Shown in pieces: positions 10,554 to 10,759 of a stretch of DNA of 64,000 nt. The notes under the pieces are model-generated. The model was not told where the DNA came from. It saw nothing but the letters and a program-made list of their open reading frames with translations, and did no database searches. The stretch is from the human T2T-CHM13v2.0 reference genome, Homo sapiens: assembly GCF_009914755.1 (NCBI RefSeq), contig NC_060927.1; one strand, given 5' to 3'. Numbering within the stretch: the first letter of the stretch is position 1; each line of letters starts with the position of its first letter. Both the position numbers and the translations under genes were made by a program.

Positions 10554-10759
10554 GAAGATGGCCGAATAGGAACAGCTCCGGTCTACAGCTCCCTGCGTGA
10601 GCGACGCAGAAGACGGTGATTTCTGCATTTCCATCTGAGACCTGCAGCTGAGGGTCCTGTCTGTTAGAAGGAAAACTAACAACCAGAAAGGACATCTACA
10701 CCGAAAACCCATCTGTACATCACCATCATCAAAGACCAAAAGTAGATAAAACCACAAAG

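What the first reader, a model, noticed from the sequence alone, without database searches (positions are those of the whole stretch)
10554..10759. Intact-ORF L1HS whose internal promoter was removed by splicing (SpIRE 97/790)
Seen: the 5'UTR is only ~205 nt instead of ~900. It reads ...CCATCTGAG|ACCTGCAGCTGAGGG (junction 10639/10640), 120 nt before the ORF1 ATG. Known: consensus L1HS continues GAG|GTACCG (splice donor near nt 97) and has CAACAG|ACCTG (acceptor near nt 790), so the loss is a clean GT-AG intron. The removed interval carries most of the CpG island, the SOX sites, the antisense promoter and ORF0. Inference: a spliced mRNA was retrotransposed, giving a coding-competent element with a crippled promoter and few methylation targets. 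The SpIRE class is described; combining it with two intact ORFs and a transduction is unusual.
Basis: partly seen in the sequence, partly recalled or inferred. Interest (0 to 1): 0.9.

Follow-up and report, generated by a model that had tools for sequence, protein, structure and literature searches.

The report
Known spliced L1 copy in COL6A6
This is a young human L1 retrotransposon copied from a spliced RNA, so it lacks most of its own promoter while keeping both protein-coding frames open; this exact copy has already been published.

Summary
An L1HS lies at 10555-15897. Its 5'UTR is 205 nt, against 905-913 nt in full-length copies of the same genome. The junction is at 10639|10640, 120 nt before the ORF1 ATG. 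In 4 of 4 full-length L1HS copies compared, the missing 688-695 nt starts with GT and ends with AG. ORF1 (338 aa) and ORF2 (1275 aa) are open. An 11-bp target-site duplication encloses the L1 plus 126 nt carried over from chromosome 4.

The interpretation also holds: a spliced L1 mRNA was retrotransposed. It is not new. Larson et al. 2018 (PMC5860796) list this locus as SpIRE(97-790)-3: L1PA1, COL6A6 intron, same orientation, 11-bp duplication, one untemplated 5' base, a 3' transduction with a chromosome 4 copy, and presence/absence polymorphism in people.

Small additions made here:
- Both frames are open, and this is the only such copy among the four with this junction.
- The chromosome 4 source site is empty in this assembly.
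- No offspring are detectable.
- An annotated alternative COL6A6 end exon runs into the element.

Interest is low.

The parts
10543..10553 (+). 5' copy of the target-site duplication, AAGATCGTGTC; preceded by TTTT, so the cleavage site reads TCTT/A on the bottom strand
   Evidence: same 11 bp in Larson S1 Table/S1 Data
10554..10554 (+). one G that belongs neither to the L1 nor to the target site (untemplated 5' base)
   Evidence: '5' 1 untemplated' in Larson S1 Table
10555..10639 (+). first part of the L1 5'UTR, 85 nt, ending at the splice donor position (L1.3 nt 97 in the paper's numbering); starts about 12-14 nt inside the L1
   Evidence: 96.5-98.8% identical to the 5' ends of 4 full-length copies, where GTACCG follows
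10640..10759 (+). second part of the 5'UTR, 120 nt, starting just after the splice acceptor (L1.3 nt 790 onward)
   Evidence: 100% identical to 4 full-length copies, where CAACAG precedes
10760..11776 (+). ORF1, 338 aa, open; trimerisation, RRM-like and C-terminal domains complete
11777..11839 (+). 63-nt spacer between the ORFs
   Evidence: spacer length as in the paper's introduction
11840..15667 (+). ORF2, 1275 aa, open; endonuclease and reverse transcriptase domains complete
15668..15897 (+). L1 3'UTR with AATAAA at 15870-15875 and the first A-run at 15873-15897
15898..16023 (+). 126 nt of unique DNA carried over from chromosome 4 (3' transduction); its own AATAAA is at 15999-16004, 19 nt before the end
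   Evidence: 99% match to G000:C4:178148658-178148790, the only other copy in the genome
16024..16084 (+). second A-tail, now containing an (AAAT)n run
16085..16095 (+). 3' copy of the target-site duplication, AAGATCGTGTC
10417..12992 (+). annotated alternative end exon of COL6A6 that starts 138 nt before the L1 and ends inside ORF2. It is context only, not part of the element.
   Evidence: hub annotation table; acceptor ...TTTTTTATCCAG|TAG and the in-frame TAG; L1-internal AATAAA at 12979-12984

Best explanation
This is the published polymorphic element SpIRE97/790-3. A young L1HS located on chromosome 4 was transcribed past its own weak poly(A) signal and ended at a genomic AATAAA 126 nt downstream. 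Within that RNA the 5'UTR was spliced from the donor at L1.3 G98U99 to the acceptor at A788G789, which removed about 690 nt. The L1 machinery then copied the spliced RNA into a COL6A6 intron by target-primed reverse transcription at a TCTT/A site. This left an 11-bp duplication, one extra 5' G and two A-tails. The copy keeps both protein frames. It has lost the interval that carries about four fifths of the UTR's CpGs, the antisense ORF and, according to the literature, most transcription-factor sites and the antisense promoter. It is therefore most likely coding-capable but nearly silent on its own, a dead end for further spread. Shown here: the structure, the GT-AG coincidence, the open frames, the origin of the carried-over DNA, and the lack of offspring in this genome. 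Inferred: that splicing happened in this generation, and that promoter activity is very low.
For: Structure and the GT...AG coincidence in 4 of 4 full-length copies. The same junction occurs at 4 places with different flanks, against 0 for the reversed control. The duplication, A-tails and transduction were read directly. The transduced DNA has exactly one other copy, on chromosome 4, and ends 19 nt after an AATAAA. Larson et al. 2018 (sections 6-9, 14, 17 and 24 read, passages searched, S1 Table and S1 Data searched) list this locus with the same flanks, duplication, extra base and transduction. They report 41% filled, 35% heterozygous and 24% empty genotypes, and detected the 97/790 splice by RT-PCR from an L1.3 reporter. 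For the smaller 97/622 deletion the paper gives about 7-fold versus 267-fold reporter activity over a promoter-less vector, and about 7% retrotransposition without an outside promoter. CpG count is 7 retained against 28-33 removed, and the antisense 71-aa ORF lies inside the removed interval. No second copy exists of the upstream flank or of the chromosome 4 tag beyond its source. None was found of the element's three-variant haplotype among the 40 scored of 1764 candidates.
Against: The two-base AG overlap means the breakpoints alone do not prove splicing. The chromosome 4 source site carries no L1 in this assembly, so it cannot be shown that the parent had a full 5'UTR. Promoter activity of the 97/790 UTR was never measured; the paper says so. 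The first 85 nt kept here include the region the paper cites as the YY1 site needed for accurate initiation, so some residual activity is possible. The offspring searches scored only the best candidates in one genome.
Confidence: 0.93

Rival explanations
1. The chromosome 4 parent was itself a spliced copy. The splice would then be inherited, and spliced L1 copies would be able to produce offspring.
For: The parent is absent from this assembly, and Larson's table mentions only the 126-bp chromosome 4 match. Its 5'UTR is therefore unknown. [quoted passage not shown]
Against: The four copies with this junction are not each other's nearest relatives. The chromosome 1 copy is closest to ordinary unspliced copies, at 99%, and the chromosome 9 and 11 spliced copies are not among the 40 best matches. 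One non-reference copy of the same class traces by its transduction to a full-length L1PA1 on X. The related 97/622 UTR supports only about 7% retrotransposition. The junction word has no further copy in this genome.
Confidence: 0.05
2. A full-length L1 inserted here and later lost about 690 bp by a genomic deletion between the two AG dinucleotides.
For: Two bases of microhomology lie at the junction.
Against: The identical junction recurs at three other loci with unrelated flanks, and in four non-reference insertions. It coincides with GT...AG in 4 of 4 unspliced copies. The same splice product was seen by RT-PCR. Population genotyping reported filled and empty alleles only.
Confidence: 0.015
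3. Assembly artefact: a collapsed 5'UTR in this assembly.
For: None found.
Against: The hg38 sequence printed in Larson S1 Data matches the window over the printed part (about 400 nt) in flanks, extra G, junction and private variants. That is a second, independent assembly.
Confidence: 0.005

Closest known systems
SpIRE97/790-3 of Larson et al. 2018 (PLoS Biol 16:e2003067, PMC5860796; S1 Table, S1 Data). According to that paper, the class was first seen by Belancio et al. 2006.
   Same: It is the same locus: chr3 (hg38 130628673), COL6A6 intron, same orientation, TCTT/A site, 11-bp duplication, one untemplated 5' base, and a 3' transduction with a 126-bp chromosome 4 copy. The printed filled-site sequence agrees with the window.
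   Different: Nothing structural differs. The paper's main text does not discuss whether its frames are open (the word 'intact' occurs 0 times). It does not mention the host alternative exon or the state of the chromosome 4 site.
SpIRE97/622, the abundant class tested functionally in the same paper
   Same: Same donor (G98U99), same intra-5'UTR logic, both ORFs untouched by the splice, and promoter loss.
   Different: The acceptor is at 620/621, so a smaller deletion (524 nt). All promoter and mobility measurements were made on that class, not on 97/790.
Ordinary full-length L1HS copies of the same genome
   Same: The window copy shows 10 differences in 4,908 nt to the nearest scored copy on C23, which also has both ORFs open. 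The 3'UTR reads ...GATGACACATTAG..., which I recall as the Ta-type ACA marker (recalled, not tested).
   Different: Those copies keep the 688-695-nt interval of the 5'UTR.

Membership tests
SpIRE97/790 (spliced integrated retrotransposed element) | The 5'UTR joins the base before the G98U99 donor directly to the base after the A788G789 acceptor | tested here: met
   The junction at 10639|10640 aligns to the GAG|gtaccg and ccaacag|ACCTG boundaries in 4 of 4 full-length copies. The numbering is taken from the paper.
SpIRE97/790 (spliced integrated retrotransposed element) | Hallmarks of insertion by target-primed reverse transcription: target-site duplication, A-tail, endonuclease-type target | tested here: met
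   11-bp duplication at 10543-10553 and 16085-16095, two A-tails, and a TTTT|AAGA target.
SpIRE97/790 (spliced integrated retrotransposed element) | Recurrence of the junction at independent loci, which separates splicing from a one-off deletion | tested here: met
   4 places in the genome with different flanks, and 0 for the reversed control.
SpIRE97/790 (spliced integrated retrotransposed element) | Listed in the published catalogue | tested here: met
   Row SpIRE(97-790)-3 in S1 Table and the filled-site sequence in S1 Data.
Retrotransposition-competent L1 | Two open frames of full length with complete domains | tested here: met
   338 aa and 1275 aa, with full-length Pfam domains. ORF2p differs at 5 of 1275 residues from a solved human ORF2p. 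The residues I recall as catalytic are present: E43, D145, N147, D205, H230, FADD and the Cys motif.
Retrotransposition-competent L1 | Working internal promoter in the 5'UTR | not testable with these tools
   About 690 of about 905 nt are absent, including 28-33 of 35-40 CpGs. Activity was not measured here, nor in the paper for this class.
Retrotransposition-competent L1 | Measured mobility, or offspring in genomes | tested here: inconclusive
   No offspring tags were found in this one genome. Only the best candidates are scored, and other genomes were not searched. The effect of the three private substitutions (ORF1p R310T, ORF2p I411M and M429T) is unknown.

The most novel reading that the evidence does not exclude
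The element lies in the sense direction in a COL6A6 intron, and an annotated host exon already runs from 138 nt upstream into ORF2. Host-driven transcripts could therefore supply the promoter that the splice removed. That would make this common allele a tissue-restricted source of L1 proteins, or even of new insertions carrying COL6A6 sequence at their 5' ends. Alternatively, its missing chromosome 4 parent may already have been spliced. Either case would contradict the view that spliced copies are strict dead ends.
Probability: 0.05. Interest if true: 0.5.

Novelty: already known. Interest (0 to 1): 0.12.

Why it matters
The class shows how splicing damages L1 and how host pressure on the 5'UTR changes splice use. 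That point was made in 2018 using this very locus among others. The remaining open question is modest: can a spliced copy with open frames, sitting sense-oriented in an expressed gene and present in about three quarters of people, still be expressed or affect COL6A6 transcripts? Answering it would refine the list of potentially expressed L1 loci. It would not change the picture.

Tried and rejected
- **Source element.** I fetched 7.6 kb upstream of the chromosome 4 match. Only the 133-nt match is shared and there is no L1 there. The site reads CTTT|AAAAAAATGCC, a good endonuclease target, so it is read as the empty allele.
- **Offspring.** Four searches found nothing:
  - upstream flank: self only;
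  - chromosome 4 tag: self plus its source;
  - junction word: the four known copies;
  - three-variant haplotype: self at 100%, the next matches at 97%, among 40 scored of 1764 candidates.
- **A spliced lineage.** I tested whether spliced copies descend from each other. They do not.
- **Literature on this copy's ORF status, expression or mobility.** None was found:
  - 'COL6A6'+'L1HS': 0 papers.
  - 'COL6A6'+'LINE-1'+'retrotransposon': 6 papers, of which 5 were listed; none is relevant by title or abstract.
  - Coordinate strings: 2 irrelevant papers.
  - 'SpIREs'+'intact'+'retrotransposition': 6 papers, of which 5 were listed; none is on this point by title or abstract.
  - Two citing papers mention the term only in their reference lists.
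- **Papers not held.** Belancio 2006, Belancio 2008 and Brouha 2003 are not in the library, so what they say about this copy was not seen.
- **Trialanine-scan data.** The preprint with these data (listing only) keeps them in closed supplements, so the three private substitutions could not be rated.
- **Earlier findings** of this scan were not open.

Full report
**What is there.** The window holds one long repeat at about 10552-15906. Read directly, the flanking sequence ...CCATTTTAAGATCGTGTC is followed by a G and then AAGATGGCCGAATAGG..., the start of an L1 5'UTR. The same 11 bases, AAGATCGTGTC, recur at 16085-16095 after a long A-rich tail. The inserted unit therefore runs from 10554 to 16084.

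The inserted unit contains, in order:
- an L1 with a 205-nt 5'UTR (10555-10759);
- ORF1 at 10760-11776 (338 aa);
- a 63-nt spacer;
- ORF2 at 11840-15667 (1275 aa);
- a 3'UTR with AATAAA and an A-run ending at 15897;
- 126 nt of non-L1 DNA (15898-16023);
- a second A-tail with an (AAAT)n run.

**The junction.** I used full-length L1HS copies of the same genome as the yardstick, because no reference sequence may be typed. A search with 10554-10900 gave two kinds of match. Many copies match only from query base 85 onward, at 100%. Three copies match across the whole query, at 96-97%. In four full-length copies (L005-L008), bases 10555-10639 align to their first 85-89 nt at 96.5-98.8% identity, and 10638-10800 align about 690 nt further on at 100%. 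In all four copies the text after the left breakpoint is GTACCG and the text before the right breakpoint is CCAACAG. The missing interval is 688 nt in three copies and 695 nt in one. The two-base AG on both sides leaves three possible registers, and only one of them is GT-AG. The 30-nt junction word occurs at four places in the whole genome, allowing up to two mismatches, and not once for the reversed control.

**What was lost.** The retained UTR has 7 CpG. Three full-length UTRs have 35-40, and the removed interval has 28-33 in four copies. In the C23 copy a 71-aa antisense ORF lies wholly within the removed interval, at the place and size I recall for ORF0. The loss of the SRY/SOX-family sites, the RUNX3 site and the antisense promoter rests on the literature cited in Larson et al.. 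I did not test it.

**The coding frames.**
- Both proteins have complete Pfam domains.
- ORF2p differs from a solved human ORF2p at 5 of 1275 residues.
- Against the nearest scored genomic copy, a full-length one on C23, the ORF1-to-ORF2 stretch differs at 10 of 4,908 nt.
- Three substitutions are private relative to both comparators: ORF1p R310T, ORF2p I411M and M429T. Their effect is unknown.
- The residues I recall as catalytic are present.

Of the four copies with this junction, only this one has both frames open. The other three show fragments of 847/339/338, 1177/248 and 430/352/281 aa. That fits their age, at about 98% identity. Of five full-length L1HS copies taken for comparison, one has both frames open.

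**Origin.** The 126-nt carried-over stretch has one other copy in the genome, on contig 4, at 99%. That site has no L1 within 7.6 kb upstream. It reads AGCTTT|AAAAAAATGCCAG..., a good endonuclease target exactly where the transduction begins. It also has an AATAAA 19 nt before the point where the transduction ends. The simplest reading is that the parent L1 sat there and its RNA ran through to that signal. This assembly would then carry the empty allele. The parent's 5'UTR therefore cannot be inspected here.

**Comparison with print.** I read sections 6-9, 14, 17 and 24 of Larson et al. 2018 (PMC5860796), searched further passages, and searched S1 Table and S1 Data. The paper defines the donor G98U99 and the acceptor A788G789, and reports four SpIRE97/790 copies in hg38. 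These are the same four places I find.

S1 Table lists SpIRE(97-790)-3 with the following entries:
- PA1, chr3:130628673, 5331 bp;
- COL6A6, same orientation;
- TCTT/A cleavage site, 11-bp TSD, one untemplated 5' base;

The printed filled site agrees with the window over its shown part, about 400 nt, including the private T in CTCCCTGCGTG. [quoted passage not shown] It also detected the 97/790 splice by RT-PCR. Its promoter and mobility measurements were done on 97/622 only, and it states that 97/790 was not tested. It concludes that such copies are generally dead ends, while allowing that one placed downstream of a cellular promoter might move once more.

**Tests of the dead-end view here.**
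- The chromosome 1 spliced copy is nearest to ordinary unspliced copies, at 99%. The chromosome 9 and 11 spliced copies are not among its 40 best matches. This argues for independent splicing events and against a spliced lineage.
- No other copy exists of the upstream flank or of the chromosome 4 tag beyond its source.
- None was found of the three close variants at 13072/13096/13125 among the 40 scored of 1764 candidates.
- These are lower bounds, and from one genome.

**Host context.** The hub's table lists an alternative COL6A6 exon at 10417-12992. The collagen exons are in phase 0, and the alternative exon opens with an in-frame TAG directly after a pyrimidine-rich acceptor. It ends 8 nt after an L1-internal AATAAA, inside an A-run. 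The end could therefore be a true internal L1 poly(A) site or a priming artefact. If real, the filled allele yields a COL6A6 message cut short in the triple helix, with the L1 5' part in its 3'UTR.

**Verdict.** The element is already known, down to its transduction and population frequency.

Noticed in passing
window 10417-12992: The annotated alternative COL6A6 end exon starts with an in-frame TAG and ends 8 nt after an L1-internal AATAAA (12979-12984). The polymorphic insertion may therefore create a truncated COL6A6 message. The end lies in an A-run, so it could also be a priming artefact.
   Followed up: partly
L011 7640-7800 (G000:C4:178148640-178148800): The source site of the carried-over DNA is empty in this assembly. 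It shows CTTT|AAAAAAA at the exact start of the transduced stretch and one C/T difference within it. The parent L1 is thus absent here and probably polymorphic or lost.
   Followed up: partly
window 16024-16084: The second A-tail has turned into an (AAAT)n microsatellite flanked by pure A runs.
   Followed up: no
L012, L013, L014 (G000 C1:40.23 Mb, C9:21.55 Mb, C11:74.69 Mb): The three other copies with the same junction have broken frames. The C11 copy's alignment is split by about 300 nt, which fits the Alu Ya5 interruption noted in the published table.
   Followed up: partly
L015 (G000:C23:11289600-11296100): The nearest scored relative of the window's element is a full-length copy with both frames open, differing at 10 of 4,908 nt.
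   Followed up: partly
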